Virus record (IMG/VR): IMGVR_UViG_3300042691_032560
Direction: 5' to 3' (one strand)
DNA: 64,000 nucleotides
From: an uncultured virus (IMG/VR IMGVR_UViG_3300042691_032560)
Taxonomy: Duplodnaviria; Heunggongvirae; Uroviricota; Caudoviricetes
Of the stretch, positions 9,850 through 13,539 are shown piece after piece (within the stretch, counting starts at the first letter, position 1; every line of letters starts with the position of its first letter). A program made the position numbers and the translations under genes. The notes under the pieces were generated by a model, which saw only the letters and a program-made list of their open reading frames with translations, was not told the DNA's origin and searched no databases.

Positions 9850-10164
9850 TTATTTACCTATAACTAATTCGTCAAAATTTAATTTACCCATACCTGAATT
9901 CTCGTCTTCTACGAATTCATCATACATGTAAGCTTTAACAACTGACAAAATACTTTGTTCGGATTGAGCAATTTTACTCTCCATCCAATCCTCAAGTTGT
10001 TCTCCGTCTTCCATTTTTTCCCACATGGTATAAGCCATGGTCGCCAACATAAAAAGTTGTTGTTTTGCCATGTATGAACCAGGTTCATTAGACTCACTAA
10101 CATTATTTTTAACTTTACCGACCAAGTCGGCAAGTTGTTTTTCAGATATAAGAATGTTTTTCAT
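9850..10164 (-). CDS. hypothetical protein with ISE leader (start revised)
   Basis: MKNILISEKQ; TATTTAT 10184-10178. Confidence 0.7.
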   Translation of the reverse strand: MKNILISEKQLADLVGKVKNNVSESNEPGSYMAKQQLFMLATMAYTMWEKMEDGEQLEDWMESKIAQSEQSILSVVKAYMYDEFVEDENSGMGKLNFDELVIGK

Positions 10165-10194
10165 ATGGTCTTTTATTATAAATATCAAAAAACA

Positions 10195-10221
10195 AAAAAA
10201 AGGAGATTTCTCTCCTTTTTT
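10195..10221 (-). terminator. intrinsic terminator (could act bidirectionally)
   Basis: AAAAAAGGAGA-TTTC-TCTCCTTTTTT. Confidence 0.8.
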
Positions 10222-10268
10222 GAGCCCGTTTTACCGGTCCACCACTTGGTTTTAATATACCAAGAAAA

Positions 10269-10625
10269 TCACTCATTCAGAACCTCAATATCCTCAATTT
10301 CAATCTTTTTGGTTAAGGTATCATACTTGGCATGAACCATAACCTTTGATTGTTTTTCTGATGATTTTGTTTTTACAGTATCTTTTTTTGGAATCTTAAC
10401 TTTGGTGTCATCCTCAATTTTAATATCAACCTTTTCAGTTTTATTTACTTTATCGGGAAGAATGACAGAATCGTAAAATGACTTAATTTGAACAACCATT
10501 AATACAAATAAAGCAGCAACCGCAATCAAAATAAATTTGATGGTTCGTTTCCAAAACTTTACTAATATCAACACGGCAATAGCCGCTGACAATAACCAAC
10601 CGAATGTATTTGAATCTATAATCAT
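10269..10625 (-). CDS. membrane protein
   Basis: two N-terminal TM helices, Lys-rich tail. Confidence 0.7.
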   Translation of the reverse strand: MIIDSNTFGWLLSAAIAVLILVKFWKRTIKFILIAVAALFVLMVVQIKSFYDSVILPDKVNKTEKVDIKIEDDTKVKIPKKDTVKTKSSEKQSKVMVHAKYDTLTKKIEIEDIEVLNE

Positions 10626-10897
10626 TTTGTTACTAGTGCTTCGATTTTACTTTTTACAATTTCTGACATCTCGATTGAACTAAGAGATGTAGTAATAATA
10701 GAATCAGAGAGGAACCGATGCGGTACGTGAACTAAAAATTCAACCCCGTTGAAGAATGATAGGTCATTCTTAAGTTCAATACAAGCTTGTATCATTTTAA
10801 GAAACAACTTAAACTGGATAGGGTCAATAAAAGTCTCATTAAGGATAACTCCGAACTTTTCGTTTTCTATTTTGATTGTGTGGGTAATTGTGGTCAT
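10622..10897 (-). CDS. hypothetical protein
   Basis: 91 aa ORF downstream of a host-type promoter. Confidence 0.7.
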   Translation of the reverse strand: MTTITHTIKIENEKFGVILNETFIDPIQFKLFLKMIQACIELKNDLSFFNGVEFLVHVPHRFLSDSIITTSLSSIEMSEIVKSKIEALVTK

Positions 10898-10912
10898 GAG
10901 TTATAATTTTTA

Positions 10913-10943
10913 CAAATATACGAATAATTTACAATCATACAAA
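10913..10943 (-). promoter_or_regulatory. Bacteroidota-type promoter
   Basis: TTTG (10943-10940), 19 nt, TATATTTG (10920-10913). Confidence 0.65.
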
Positions 10944-11366
10944 TTTTTTGTCCCTATTTAGTTCTCTTTCCTTAATTGTATTACGTTTATCGTACAGTTT
11001 TTTACCTTTTGCAAGAGAAATTTCAACTTTTATCAACCCTTTATCATTTTCAAACACTTTATTAACAATTATTGTTAGTCCTTTAATCATATCTCTTTTC
11101 AATCCATTTAGTTCGGACTTTTTTAACAACAATTTTTTATCTCGTTTAACATCAGGTGAAAACTCATTAACTTTCTCAGTCAAAACCATATTTTTAATAA
11201 AAAGTTCATTTTCTTTAAAAATACAGAAGGCGTCATTTATTGAAAGTTTACCCTTTTTTATTGTCTTTACCTCACTTCCAATCAATTGGATACCTGCAGT
11301 GAACGTAGAAATAAACTCATATTCATAACGAGCTTTCTTATTAACTATGGATAGTTTATTTTTCAT
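10935..11366 (-). CDS. smpB: SsrA-binding protein SmpB homolog
   Basis: NKKARYEY..AGIQL.GSEVK, R.KKLLL.K.E and LAKGKKLYDKR motifs. Confidence 0.92.
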   Translation of the reverse strand: MKNKLSIVNKKARYEYEFISTFTAGIQLIGSEVKTIKKGKLSINDAFCIFKENELFIKNMVLTEKVNEFSPDVKRDKKLLLKKSELNGLKRDMIKGLTIIVNKVFENDKGLIKVEISLAKGKKLYDKRNTIKERELNRDKKFV

Positions 11367-11384
11367 AATGGGTACAAATATACG

Positions 11385-11472
11385 AAAAAAACAAAAACCC
11401 TAAAAATCTTTGGGGGAATTTTAGGGTTTAGTTTTAACCAACTATTTAGAAAGGGGTGTTGGGCTTATTTTT
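11385..11472 (-). ncRNA. candidate ~85 nt small RNA with a 16S 3'-tail-like segment
   Basis: ORF-free; TATTTATA at 11482-11475 upstream; CCAAC/GTTGG stem; terminator AAACCCTAAAA/TTTTAGGGTTT followed by U run. Confidence 0.5.
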
Positions 11473-11573
11473 CGTATAAATATGTATAAATTATTAAAAA
11501 GTTAAATTTTAAACAAAAAAACTTAATTATTTTATAAAATAAATCATTTTCATATCATAAAGTATTTATCATT

Positions 11574-11915
11574 ATGATGTTAAGTATAAATAACACTAAA
11601 TTCAAAGTTAAAGTTTTAGTGTCGGAAAAAGAAACCCAAAAAGGTATGATGGGTAAAAAATTCGACAAAGACTTTAACGGTATGTTATTCATGATGGGTA
11701 GTGATGAACATTGTTTTTGGATGAATAACTGTATTATAAATTTGGATATCATTTTTATTAAAGATGACATCATAACAAAAATACATCACAATTGTCTTCC
11801 ATGTAAAGACGATGAATGTAGGAATTATTGTGGTGAAGGTGATATGGTTTTAGAAGTAAAGGGTGGAACCTGTAAACAAAAAGGTATATTAGAGGGTGAT
11901 GAATTAGTCTATTAA
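11574..11915 (+). CDS. DUF192 family protein
   Basis: GMM, GMLF, FWM.N....LDIIFI and VLEV.GG motifs; TATTTAT 11563-11569. Confidence 0.85.
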   Translation: MMLSINNTKFKVKVLVSEKETQKGMMGKKFDKDFNGMLFMMGSDEHCFWMNNCIINLDIIFIKDDIITKIHHNCLPCKDDECRNYCGEGDMVLEVKGGTCKQKGILEGDELVY

Positions 11916-13312
11916 GACTGACCAATCTTTTCCTGTAATACTCTAACAAATTCTCTTTGTAACATCTTAAGAAATTTAACGTATGGGGAATCCTCTCTCT
12001 CGGGGTCATACTTGTATTTTCCTTGTGGTGGTCTATTGGACCTTCCCATATACATTAAACCTGAAATGTTTGTAATACATTTGTGCCCCCCTGAATTGGA
12101 TTGAATGACATCCCAAGCACTAACCGTAACATCATCTAATATTTGTCTCTCTTCATCGGTCAACTGTTCAAATGGTTTTTCCATCAAATTACCTATGTTA
12201 ATCAACTCTTCTTTTCCATTTTGCATTGACTTATAGTTCTTACCATATAAAGCCACAAAATCTTTGAAGGTAAATCCAACTGACTCAGGTCCAAAACCTT
12301 TAACGTCTTCAGATATCCATTTGATAGTTGATAGTGGTATTTGTCTGTCCTTTAATTGTCCTTCCCATTTAGATAATACCTCTTGGGCAATATCACCTAA
12401 GTTAACACCTTTCAATTCTCTATCTTTTTTAAATGGATTACAAGAAGCCTGTAACAGTCCCATTGGCCAGGCAATAACTAAAAAGTCCGCCTCAGGGTTA
12501 TTTCTAAATGGTGTATATCTATCATATGAACCTGGTTTCATCATACTACCACCACCGTATTGAACTATTATATTATTAGATACTTCAGGATAACTCTTCA
12601 TTTTTTGAACATAATCCTCCTTATGTTTTTCAAGTTCGGGAATATCAGCATATCCCTTTTCCTTCATAATTTGTCTTATATTAACAAGAATATTAGTTAA
12701 AGATGGAGTTGATTCCATAACTAATCTTTCTAAGAATCCAGGTTTGTTCTTAAACGCCAATAATAATTTATTAGCAACCATACCCATCGCCATTTTATTC
12801 TTTAATAATGACGAGTCTTTATCAAACTTAAACAAATAATTCATTACTTGTTCAGGAGTAATATCATATTTTGCGAAGTTGGCAGAATCAACTGTTGAAA
12901 TTAATAAAATATCTTTTTCTGGAAATATTTCTTTAGGTGAAACAATCTGTGATATTGTCTCTACATTTGAACGAGATTGTCTGAAAGATGTTGATTTGGT
13001 ATCTTCGGCGCCAGCTTGTCTATCGTGGTGGTCAGTATGAATAACGAACATTGGTTTACCGTGGGCAAAATCAACAAGAACCGGCATCACATCACCTGTT
13101 GCGTCGTTTTTCTTTATTGAAAACTCTTTGTCACCATATTGAATTACGTGAGCGTCAATTACCTCAATACCATGTTGTTCAAGATATGATTTCATGGCTA
13201 TGGCCGTAGTGACCCCATCAAGGTCTTGGTGAAAATATATTTCAGCCTTTGGATATCTTTGAGATAAAGCTTTGATATCTCTTATACCACTTTCTGAGAG
13301 TATTTTTTTCAT
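11912..13312 (-). CDS. DHH-superfamily phosphoesterase
   Basis: HQDLDG, LVD, TDHH, DSA and C-terminal GGH motifs. Confidence 0.75.
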   Translation of the reverse strand: MKKILSESGIRDIKALSQRYPKAEIYFHQDLDGVTTAIAMKSYLEQHGIEVIDAHVIQYGDKEFSIKKNDATGDVMPVLVDFAHGKPMFVIHTDHHDRQAGAEDTKSTSFRQSRSNVETISQIVSPKEIFPEKDILLISTVDSANFAKYDITPEQVMNYLFKFDKDSSLLKNKMAMGMVANKLLLAFKNKPGFLERLVMESTPSLTNILVNIRQIMKEKGYADIPELEKHKEDYVQKMKSYPEVSNNIIVQYGGGSMMKPGSYDRYTPFRNNPEADFLVIAWPMGLLQASCNPFKKDRELKGVNLGDIAQEVLSKWEGQLKDRQIPLSTIKWISEDVKGFGPESVGFTFKDFVALYGKNYKSMQNGKEELINIGNLMEKPFEQLTDEERQILDDVTVSAWDVIQSNSGGHKCITNISGLMYMGRSNRPPQGKYKYDPEREDSPYVKFLKMLQREFVRVLQEKIGQS

Positions 13313-13497
13313 TACTTTTTACCTCCAAAAATATTCTTCAATGTTATTAATGAATCTTGAACCTCTTCGTTAACGGAAGACTTTCTTTTTTCAACATACA
13401 TTTGAATTTTTTCTTTGACCAAAGAATGTTTCTCCTCATTATAAATTTGGATTAACTTATCTTTAAATTGTTCTTCAGATAGAATTTTACCTCTCAT
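13312..13497 (-). CDS. small hypothetical protein with LSE leader
   Basis: MRGKILSEEQ; TATTTAT 13517-13511; TAATG overlap with the DHH gene. Confidence 0.6.
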   Translation of the reverse strand: MRGKILSEEQFKDKLIQIYNEEKHSLVKEKIQMYVEKRKSSVNEEVQDSLITLKNIFGGKK

Positions 13498-13539
13498 AGA
13501 TTTTTTTTATATAAATATTCACAAAAACAAAAATGGAGG

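What the first reader, a model, noticed from the sequence alone, without database searches (positions are those of the whole stretch)
11385..11482. Candidate small RNA beside smpB resembling the Bacteroidota 16S rRNA 3' (anti-SD) tail
Seen: on the minus strand, TATTTATA (11482-11475) is followed by an ORF-free ~85 nt unit, CGAAAAAUAAGCCCAACACCCCUUUCUAAAUAGUUGGUU...AAACCCUAAAA-loop-UUUUAGGGUUUUUGUUUUUUU. It has its own promoter-like motif and terminator. The segment AACACCCCUUUCU (11460-11448) lies mostly in the loop of the CCAAC/GUUGG stem. Known (from recall): Bacteroidota 16S rRNA ends ...GAACACCUCCUUUCU; its anti-SD is sequestered by bS21/bS18/bS6; and rpsU is one of the few host genes using a strong SD. 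The phage segment differs by one missing U. Inference: an anti-SD decoy that either pairs with host SD-led mRNAs such as rpsU or titrates the sequestering pocket, forming a translation-control module with SmpB. A 13 nt match could arise by chance.
Basis: partly seen in the sequence, partly recalled or inferred. Interest (0 to 1): 0.85.

Follow-up and report, generated by a model that had tools for sequence, protein, structure and literature searches.

The report
Phage small RNA resembling 16S tail
A giant freshwater phage of Bacteroidota carries a conserved gene for a roughly 90-base RNA whose exposed loop nearly copies the end of the host's 16S ribosomal RNA, and a second phage RNA carries the matching sequence, so the two may tune ribosomes, although nothing has yet been shown at the bench.

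Summary
On the minus strand, window 11483-11385 holds a promoter-like box, a 5-bp stem with a 15-nt loop, an 11-bp terminator hairpin and a U run. The fold has z = -4.75.

It is a conserved, single-copy, phage-specific unit. I found 37 distinct sequences and none matches an Rfam family. It was not found in 401 Bacteroidota genomes or upstream of 80 bacterial smpB genes.

The unit is not tied to smpB: 17 of 41 loci have no smpB behind it. It sits in a syntenic slot for non-coding RNA genes. In a sister clade the same slot holds tRNA-Met genes and GOLLD RNA.

The loop core CCCUUUC is invariant. Its last seven bases, CCUUUCU, equal the last seven bases of Bacteroidota 16S rRNA. The anti-SD core CCUCC never occurs (0 of 37).

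The complete twin genome encodes bS21. It also encodes a second conserved small RNA ("RNA-1") whose loop, AGAAAGGGGGU, complements both the 16S tail and this unit's loop.

My best reading (about 0.45) is a trans-acting RNA that pairs with SD-like purine tracts. The first candidate partner is RNA-1 and the second is the host rpsU leader. Expression is untested.

The parts
11476..11483 (-). Promoter-like box ATATTTAT. It resembles the Bacteroidota -7 box TAnnTTTG (consensus recalled) with A in place of G.
   Evidence: TTTAT is invariant in 37 of 37 distinct homologues. The box lies 11-14 nt before the conserved RNA block. Its function as a promoter is inferred, not shown.
11458..11462 (-). 5' arm (CCAAC) of stem-loop 1
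   Evidence: Predicted by the fold. The helix is 98.9% paired across 37 distinct sequences. Two sequences have A changed to G, which keeps a G.U pair on this strand only. There are no double compensatory changes.
11443..11457 (-). 15-nt apical loop ACCCCUUUCUAAAUA. The core CCCCUUUCU is at 11456-11448. This is the 16S-tail-like seed.
   Evidence: CCCTTTC is present in 37 of 37 distinct sequences, and CCUCC in 0 of 37. CCUUUCU equals the last 7 nt of the 16S rRNA seen and of the ACCUCCUUUCU oligo in PMC7797042.
11438..11442 (-). 3' arm (GUUGG) of stem-loop 1
11385..11429 (-). Intrinsic terminator: an 11-bp hairpin (arms 11429-11419 and 11405-11395) followed by the run UUUUUGUUUUUUU
   Evidence: Fold. 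The arms co-vary between lineages (AAACCCUAAAA, AAACCCCAAAA, AACCCUAACAA and others).
11375..11382 (-). Separate -7-type promoter box TATATTTG for the downstream gene (here smpB). It is not part of the RNA.
   Evidence: A TAnnTTTG box is present after the U run in all lineages, whatever gene follows.
10935..11366 (-). smpB, a neighbour and not part of the unit
   Evidence: Pfam SmpB, E = 2e-40. It is missing behind the unit in 17 of 41 loci.

Best explanation
The unit is a stand-alone gene for a trans-acting phage small RNA of about 85-95 nt, called 'RNA-2' here.

A 5-bp stem presents a 13-15-nt loop. The invariant C-run plus UUUCU in that loop is a near copy of the last bases of Bacteroidota 16S rRNA. 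A strong terminator ends the transcript.

I infer that it works by base pairing through this loop with SD-like purine tracts of the form AGAAAGGG(G).

The best-fitting partner found is a second conserved phage small RNA ('RNA-1'). RNA-1 is present in the complete twin genome but lies outside the window. Its hairpin loop shows AAAGAAAGGGGGUAUUCC with no start codon behind it, and RNA-1 itself can pair with 15 of the 16 bases of the 16S 3' end that were tested.

RNA-2 would therefore compete with the 16S tail for RNA-1, as an antidote or a mutual sponge. The host rpsU (bS21) leader is a second possible target.

What is shown: the anatomy, conservation, single copy, phage restriction, independence from smpB, complementarity, and co-residence with bS21.

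What is inferred: transcription, strand, pairing in vivo, and any effect on ribosomes.
For: A real, conserved unit:
- The fold has z = -4.75.
- 41 viral loci match an exact pattern.
- 35 of 80 DHH-anchored loci give covariance-model hits of 55-92 bits, all on the same strand.
- There are 37 distinct sequences.
- There is one strong hit per genome in 5 of 5 records.

An independent gene:
- The downstream gene varies.
- In the window the upstream gene is divergent, while in relatives it is co-directional.
- In a sister clade the slot holds tRNA-Met(CAT) genes (11 of 22 loci) and GOLLD RNA (5 of 10 loci).

Phage-specific:
- 0 of 80 bacterial smpB upstream regions score above 19.8 bits.
- The pattern hit 9 of 401 Bacteroidota genomes, none scoring above 18.9 bits.
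- No Rfam family matches.

Strand:
- The change CCAAC to CCAGC keeps a G.U pair only on this strand.

The partner RNA-1:
- It occurs in 23 viral loci, always with GGGGG or GGGGGG and never GGAGG.
- Its structure has 7 pairs with changes on both sides.
- It is in G001 and G411 together with RNA-2, and also in G426.

Pairing energies:
- RNA-2 loop with RNA-1: -16.3 kcal/mol in G001 and -15.9 in G411. 0 of 1000 loop shuffles reach these values.
- An 11-nt stretch at the 16S 3' end with RNA-1: -15.6.
- A 17-nt stretch at the 16S 3' end with RNA-1: -23.6, 15 pairs.

bS21:
- It is present in G001, G002 and G411.
Against: - There is no expression evidence. Metatranscriptome contigs from three runs covered the neighbouring genes but not the unit. 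That is uninformative, not negative.
- The stem of stem-loop 1 has no double compensatory change. Its arms could be conserved for another reason.
- RNA-1 was found by searching for the complement of the loop, so the shuffle statistic is not an independent test.
- The two RNAs are not strictly co-inherited. G002 (91% complete) has RNA-2 but no RNA-1 hit. G421 (complete) has RNA-1 but no RNA-2.
- Cognate pairs bind hardly better than non-cognate pairs: -15.9 against -14.8 in G411, and equal in G001.
- The host is unknown, so host targets could not be ranked.
Confidence: 0.45

Rival explanations
1. Anti-SD decoy aimed at host mRNAs. The loop pairs with the extended SD of host rpsU, and perhaps rpsR, and blocks host bS21 synthesis. 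The phage's own bS21, mostly without an SD, then takes over the ribosomes.
For: - In F. johnsoniae, rpsU is the one gene with a strong SD, and its translation needs SD-ASD pairing (abstract of PMC13000453; passages of PMC7797042).
- The SD oligo AGAAAGGAGGU quoted in that paper would pair with ACCCCUUUCU over 7 contiguous bp, then a one-base bulge, then 3 bp. This is my reading of the sequences.
- All 37 variants keep CCUUUC.
- The phage bS21 leaders in G001 and G411 lack an SD.
Against: - An exact CCUCC would pair better with GGAGG, yet it occurs in 0 of 37 variants.
- No host anti-SD variant with C in place of U1537 was seen. All 150 listed 16S 3' ends, from 123 of 401 genomes, read CCTCC; 17 further matches were not listed.
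- G002's own bS21 leader carries an SD-like GUAGGAGGGAG. It would be hit too.
- The host is unknown.
Confidence: 0.2
2. A cis or DNA-level element only. The hairpin plus U run insulates the downstream promoter from upstream transcription, and the CCAAC...GTTGG inverted repeat with its spacer is a protein-binding operator. No functional RNA is involved.
For: - The arms of stem-loop 1 are conserved in sequence rather than by covariation.
- A TAnnTTTG promoter box always follows directly.
- No transcript has been shown.
Against: - The spacer (the loop core) is more conserved than an operator spacer needs to be.
- Spacer length varies from 13 to 16 nt between the arms, which is awkward for a dimeric DNA binder.
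- The A to G change keeps a pair only at the RNA level.
- The unit keeps its own upstream box even where no co-directional gene precedes it.
- The slot otherwise holds RNA genes.
Confidence: 0.12
3. A protein decoy. The loop imitates the 16S 3' tail and soaks up free bS21, bS18 or bS6, whether host or phage, rather than pairing with RNA.
For: - The ungapped alignment AACCCCUUUCU against ACCUCCUUUCU differs at positions 1535 and 1537. Position 1535 is reported to make no specific contact with the ribosome platform (passage of PMC7797042).
- The variants with five C's (for example L013 and L175) differ only at 1537.
- bS21 binding to an intramolecular SD/anti-SD mimic in OLE RNA is in print. I saw only the title and the start of the abstract of PMC12054373 (search listing).
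Against: - U1537 is among the bases reported to be hydrogen-bonded by bS18, and it is never present.
- In the ribosome the tail is a free 3' end with U1544 stacked, whereas here the motif is internal to a loop.
- No test was possible with the tools available.
Confidence: 0.07

Closest known systems
3' tail of Bacteroidia 16S rRNA (A1534-U1544, ACCUCCUUUCU), sequestered by bS21/bS18/bS6 (PMC7797042; passages read)
   Same: The terminal CCUUUCU is identical. In the window 14 of 15 positions match, including the first base after the mature end. The unit lies in phages that encode bS21.
   Different: The U of CCUCC is always missing or replaced by C. The motif lies inside a hairpin loop, not at a free 3' end. 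Helix 45 is not copied.
sRNA and sponge or antidote RNA pairs, for example GcvB with AgvB or SroC, and the phage P1 c4 and IsrK-type pairs (examples recalled; they are also named in earlier scan notes)
   Same: Two small, separately terminated RNAs in one genome with complementary exposed regions. One of them is complementary to a cellular target.
   Different: Here the presumed cellular target is the ribosome's own 16S tail, in a host whose ribosomes hide it. Neither RNA is related in sequence to those families, and neither matches Rfam.
Extended SD of rpsU and the bS21 autoregulatory loop in Flavobacteriales (PMC7797042, passages; PMC13000453, abstract; PMC9976891, start of the abstract in the listing)
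   Same: RNA-1 looks like an orphan copy of that SD, and RNA-2 looks like the rRNA side of that helix.
   Different: There is no ORF behind RNA-1. RNA-1 has GGGGG, not GGAGG. Both RNAs are phage-encoded.
bS21-encoding freshwater myophages of Bacteroidetes (Chen et al. 2022, PMC9723584; passages read)
   Same: Genome size of about 320 kb, lake-water habitat of the runs that hold parts of the stretch, bS21 gene, and Bacteroidota-like genes.
   Different: That paper does not contain the words SmpB, tmRNA or noncoding (0 occurrences each). I did not test whether this phage belongs to the paper's clades.

Membership tests
Exact mimic of the 16S anti-SD tail | Contains the anti-SD core CCUCC | tested here: not met
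   0 of 37 distinct homologues. The C run is CCC, CCCC or CCCCC, and once UCCC.
Exact mimic of the 16S anti-SD tail | Contains the terminal CCUUUCU of Bacteroidota 16S rRNA | tested here: met
   CCTTTC is in 37 of 37 distinct homologues. It is followed by T in all but the L029 type. The 16S end was read.
Trans-acting base-pairing small RNA | A discrete unit with an intrinsic terminator and no ORF, conserved independently of its neighbours | tested here: met
Trans-acting base-pairing small RNA | A conserved single-stranded seed with a complementary partner | tested here: met
   The loop core is invariant. It pairs over 9-11 bp with the RNA-1 loop at about -16 kcal/mol. The partner was found by a complement search, so this shows compatibility and is not proof.
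Trans-acting base-pairing small RNA | Transcribed as a discrete RNA | tested here: inconclusive
   Only contigs of 3 RNA runs were available. They cover neighbouring genes but not the unit.
cis leader or attenuator of smpB | Always precedes smpB | tested here: not met
   smpB lies within 900 nt downstream in 24 of 41 loci and not in 17. Other genes follow in 8 of the 10 loci inspected; the other two were cut short.
tRNA or tmRNA | Cloverleaf or tRNA-like domain | tested here: not met
   ARAGORN found 0 genes in the window.
Any Rfam 15 family, including GOLLD and the CRISPR direct-repeat families | Score at or above the gathering threshold | tested here: not met
   0 hits in the window. The best hit in 11300-11600 scored 19.5 bits against a gathering score of 63.
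RNA anti-CRISPR (solitary repeat mimic) | The sequence matches a CRISPR repeat arrayed in host genomes | tested here: inconclusive
   A loose pattern for stem-loop 1 gave only 9 single hits in 401 Bacteroidota genomes and no arrays. The host is unknown.

The most novel reading that the evidence does not exclude
These bS21-carrying giant phages run an all-RNA circuit on the hidden anti-SD of Bacteroidota ribosomes.

RNA-1, an orphan 'super-SD', grips the 16S 3' tail of ribosomes that lack bS21. RNA-2, the unit in this window, is an orthogonal copy of that tail (CCCC facing GGGGG). It releases or buffers RNA-1 without touching ordinary GGAGG sites.

Together with phage bS21, this would rewire the host's rpsU autoregulatory loop during infection.
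Probability: 0.2. Interest if true: 0.9.

Novelty: new variant of a known kind. Interest (0 to 1): 0.68.

Why it matters
Bacteroidota ribosomes keep an anti-SD sequence but hide it. The only settled use of it is autoregulation of bS21.

Phages of these hosts often carry bS21, and nobody knows why. A conserved phage RNA that copies the rRNA side of that helix, in genomes that also carry an RNA copying the mRNA side, gives two small, easily synthesised molecules. They can be tested directly on Flavobacterium johnsoniae ribosomes with published assays.

The work also adds two RNA families that are in neither Rfam nor the papers listed by my four searches (search listings only). It further shows a syntenic 'RNA gene slot' in these phages that can hold this RNA or tRNA-Met plus GOLLD RNA.

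Tried and rejected
1. Expression. Three metatranscriptome runs hold 5-7% of the words of window 10000-13500. Their contigs lie on DHH, DUF192 and the 3' end of smpB, not on the unit. No conclusion follows either way.

2. tmRNA, tRNA or an Rfam family: none found.

3. A host homologue upstream of bacterial smpB: 0 of 80 loci. A loose pattern in 401 Bacteroidota genomes gave 9 hits against 2 for the reversed control. None carried the terminator, and all scored 18.9 bits or less.

4. Phage bS21 leader as target. The loop-only duplex is -13.3 kcal/mol in G002 (77 of 1000 shuffles do as well), -7.1 in G001 (37 of 1000) and -3.0 in G411 (658 of 1000). This is not consistent across genomes.

5. The only other AGAAAGGGG site in the 126.8-kb record (G000:124585, minus strand). 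It sits in its own GGGG/CCCC hairpin, and the G411 homologue reads AGAAUGGGG without a matching change in RNA-2.

6. A host with a CCCCC anti-SD: not seen.

7. Similarity to GOLLD or to the sister clade's slot: only short chance matches.

8. Full-length RNA-RNA duplex folding. It is dominated by A-run/U-run pairing and is uninformative, with z between -2.7 and +0.3.

9. A shared promoter class. The CTTTT...nAnnTTTAT arrangement occurs only 6 times in G000.

10. Co-occurrence tests on fragments. 5 RNA-2-bearing fragments had no RNA-1, and 4 of 5 RNA-1-bearing fragments had no RNA-2. The two genes lie about 82 kb apart in G001, so these fragments are uninformative.

Full report
WHAT IS THERE

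Its parts are:
- the box ATATTTAT (11483-11476);
- the stem CCAAC/GUUGG (11462-11458 and 11442-11438);
- a 15-nt loop ACCCCUUUCUAAAUA (11457-11443);
- an 11-bp hairpin (11429-11419 and 11405-11395);
- a U run ending at 11385.

As RNA the stretch folds at -24.7 kcal/mol. Two hundred shuffles average -11.9 +/- 2.7, giving z = -4.75, and none folds as well. The simple terminator scan missed the hairpin because its loop is longer than that scan allows.

Directly after the U run comes TATATTTG (11382-11375). This matches the Bacteroidota -7 box TAnnTTTG (consensus recalled) and lies 8 nt before the smpB start codon. smpB therefore appears to have its own promoter. ARAGORN and Rfam find nothing in the window or in this stretch.

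WHERE THE WINDOW COMES FROM

The window is part of a 126.8-kb virus record estimated to be 43% complete. Its only phage-database relatives are uncultured phages of 630-640 kb, at about 70% identity over a short stretch.

A complete 321,403-bp record with terminal repeats (G001) is identical over every stretch I compared. I use it as the phage's full genome.

The nearest bacterial SmpB proteins (41-52% identical) are almost all from Bacteroidota.

CONSERVATION

The same unit stands upstream of smpB in 8 loci with SmpB at least 83% identical. It also stands there in 11 loci with SmpB only 49-54% identical. Ten of the first 29 loci examined lack it.

An exact pattern found 41 viral loci. In 24 of them smpB starts about 95-100 nt after the pattern start. 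In the other 17 no smpB lies within 900 nt. Some of these loci are cut short, but in 8 of the 10 inspected, other small genes follow.

In the loci without smpB the order is: DHH-like gene, reversed DUF192, a 154-aa gene that looks like a NUDIX hydrolase (my reading, no family search), the unit, variable small genes, and then a homologue of window ORF 10622-10897.

A covariance model (R1) was run on 80 loci anchored on the DHH-like gene. It gave 35 hits of 55-92 bits, all on the gene's strand.

The other 45 loci gave no strong hit. 25 of them have at least 1300 nt of sequence downstream of the DHH gene, yet none has a CCCTTTC motif there.

Each of five phage records has exactly one strong hit.

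Thirty-eight loci chosen as distinct gave 37 distinct sequences and 25 distinct versions of stem-loop 1.

Invariant or nearly invariant features:
- the TTTAT of the box;
- the arms CCAAC and GTTGG;
- the loop core CCCTTTC;
- the base of the terminator.

The spacer, the loop flanks and the terminator loop vary.

The stem is 98.9% paired. It shows only a one-sided change (A-U to G.U in 2 of 37 sequences) and no double change. The covariation score is 0.088 against 0.069 in shuffles, reached by 7 of 500 shuffles. Covariation therefore does not prove the stem. The G.U change is compatible with RNA only on this strand.

NOT A HOST ELEMENT AND NOT A LEADER

- None of 80 bacterial smpB upstream regions matches; the best scores 19.8 bits.
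- A loose pattern hit 9 of 401 Bacteroidota genomes, against 2 hits for the reversed control. None has the terminator, and all score 18.9 bits or less.
- Five more distant huge phages that carry smpB have no copy.

THE SLOT

In the sister clade that lacks the unit, the same position is an ORF-free stretch of about 1.7 kb.
- It holds tRNA-Met(CAT) genes in 11 of 22 loci. None of 9 unit-bearing loci has a tRNA there.
- It holds a GOLLD RNA in 5 of 10 loci scanned, at 277-323 bits.

This supports reading the unit as an RNA gene. G001 carries a GOLLD RNA elsewhere in its genome.

THE 16S RESEMBLANCE

A Maribacter 16S gene ends ...GGAACACCTCCTTTCT, followed by A. PMC7797042 gives ACCUCCUUUCU as the tail, A1534-U1544.

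The window loop and its 5' arm read AACACCCCTTTCTA. That is 14 of 15 positions with the T of CCTCC missing.

Across the family only C(3-5)UUUC(U) is conserved, the 'ACACC' part is not, and CCUCC never occurs. The unit is therefore tail-like but not a copy of the tail.

No Bacteroidota 16S with C in place of that U was seen. 123 of 401 genomes gave a match, and all 150 listed matches read CCTCC; 17 further matches were not listed.

bS21

The Pfam family Ribosomal_S21 is found in G001 (31.3 bits), G002 (29.5 bits) and G411 (32.7 bits). That is 3 of 3 unit-bearing records at least 90% complete. It was not found in 12 fragmentary records.

bS21 also occurs in three huge phages without the unit. 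The link is therefore one-way and confined to one clade.

A COMPLEMENTARY PHAGE RNA

Earlier notes of this scan describe orphan 'super-SD' RNAs in other bS21 phages, and in one case a second RNA resembling the tail. These are AI notes, and I used them only as leads.

Following them, I searched the complete genomes for the SD oligo motif with mismatches allowed. AGAAAGGGGGT turned up in a conserved intergenic unit between convergent genes in G001 (269,310) and in G411 (89,721).

This 'RNA-1' occurs in 23 viral loci with 12 distinct sequences. The variable position in the pattern is G in all 23.

RNAalifold gives three hairpins, with 7 pairs changed on both sides. The SD-like tract lies in the loop of the second hairpin. 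No start codon follows before the terminator.

Duplex energies:
- A 17-nt stretch at the 16S 3' end with RNA-1: 15 pairs, -23.6 kcal/mol.
- An 11-nt stretch at the 16S 3' end with RNA-1: -15.6 kcal/mol.
- RNA-2 loop with RNA-1: 9 bp, -16.3 kcal/mol in G001; 11 bp, -15.9 kcal/mol in G411.
- 0 of 1000 loop shuffles reach the RNA-2 values. RNA-1 was found through its complementarity, so this is not an independent test.

The GGGGG of RNA-1 offers a reason for the 'missing U'. CCCC pairs perfectly with RNA-1 but only with a bulge or a mismatch to a canonical GGAGG.

Against a strict pair:
- G002 has RNA-2 but no RNA-1.
- G421 has RNA-1 but no RNA-2.
- Cognate pairs are barely better than non-cognate ones.

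Both RNAs occur together in G001, G411 and the G411-like G426.

READING

I take the unit to be a trans-acting phage small RNA that pairs through its loop with SD-like purine tracts. RNA-1 is the first candidate partner and the host rpsU leader is the second (confidence 0.45).

A purely cis or DNA-level role is at 0.12 and a protein decoy at 0.07.

The proposed module with SmpB is not supported. No transcript has been shown. The metatranscriptome contigs I could lay cover the neighbouring genes only.

IN PRINT

Four full-text searches (listings only) showed no paper on such a phage RNA. The bS21-phage paper (PMC9723584; passages read) does not contain the words SmpB, tmRNA or noncoding. I did not open its supplementary tables.

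Noticed in passing
G001:C1 about 269,240-269,400 (+) = L314 about 440-600; G411:C1 about 89,650-89,810 = L315; 23 viral loci L316-L338: 'RNA-1' is a conserved non-coding unit of about 100 nt between convergent genes. It has three hairpins, and the loop AAAGAAAGGGGGUAUUCC is complementary to 15 of the 16 tested bases at the Bacteroidota 16S 3' end. No start codon follows. It is not in Rfam-scanned stretches of the window and lies outside the window and outside G000.
   Followed up: partly
L146 4320-6079, and also L135, L137, L140, L150 (sister-clade loci): The syntenic slot holds one or two tRNA-Met(CAT) genes, a GOLLD RNA (Rfam RF02032, 277-323 bits), and repeated promoter-like boxes GATTTGACAGTTCAAAAAAACTTTCnTATCTTTGT in front of short hairpin units. 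These units may be further small RNAs.
   Followed up: partly
G001:C1:282212-282605 (+): GOLLD RNA (298 bits) in the complete twin genome. None was found in G000, G002 or G003.
   Followed up: no
window 11375-11382 (-) and 11364-11366: The smpB -7-type box TATATTTG ends only 8 nt before the ATG (4-10 nt in relatives). The smpB mRNA would therefore be leaderless or nearly so.
   Followed up: no
G000:C1 about 124,100-124,800 (outside the window) = L307; G411:C1:34548-34938: An ORF-poor region that is 86% identical between two phages. It has repeated TTACCAC(C/A) motifs and GGGG/CCCC hairpins. It could be an origin-like or non-coding element. No Rfam family matches.
   Followed up: partly
L123 (G002 bS21 locus), 20-30 nt before the bS21 start: G002's phage bS21 gene has an SD-like GUAGGAGGGAG followed by an ATG-TAG mini-frame. 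The bS21 leaders of G001 and G411 have no SD.
   Followed up: partly
G411:C1:37201-38474 (-): AAAAAGGGGGT recurs four times at intervals of about 370-490 nt. I did not examine this.
   Followed up: no
window 11912-13312 (-), 11574-11915 (+): The DHH-like gene (Pfam DHH at 20.7 bits, below the cut-off) is highly conserved in this phage group. At least 599 viral stretches match it, and the 80 loci kept are 65-100% identical. The end of the reversed DUF192 gene overlaps its end by 4 nt.
   Followed up: no
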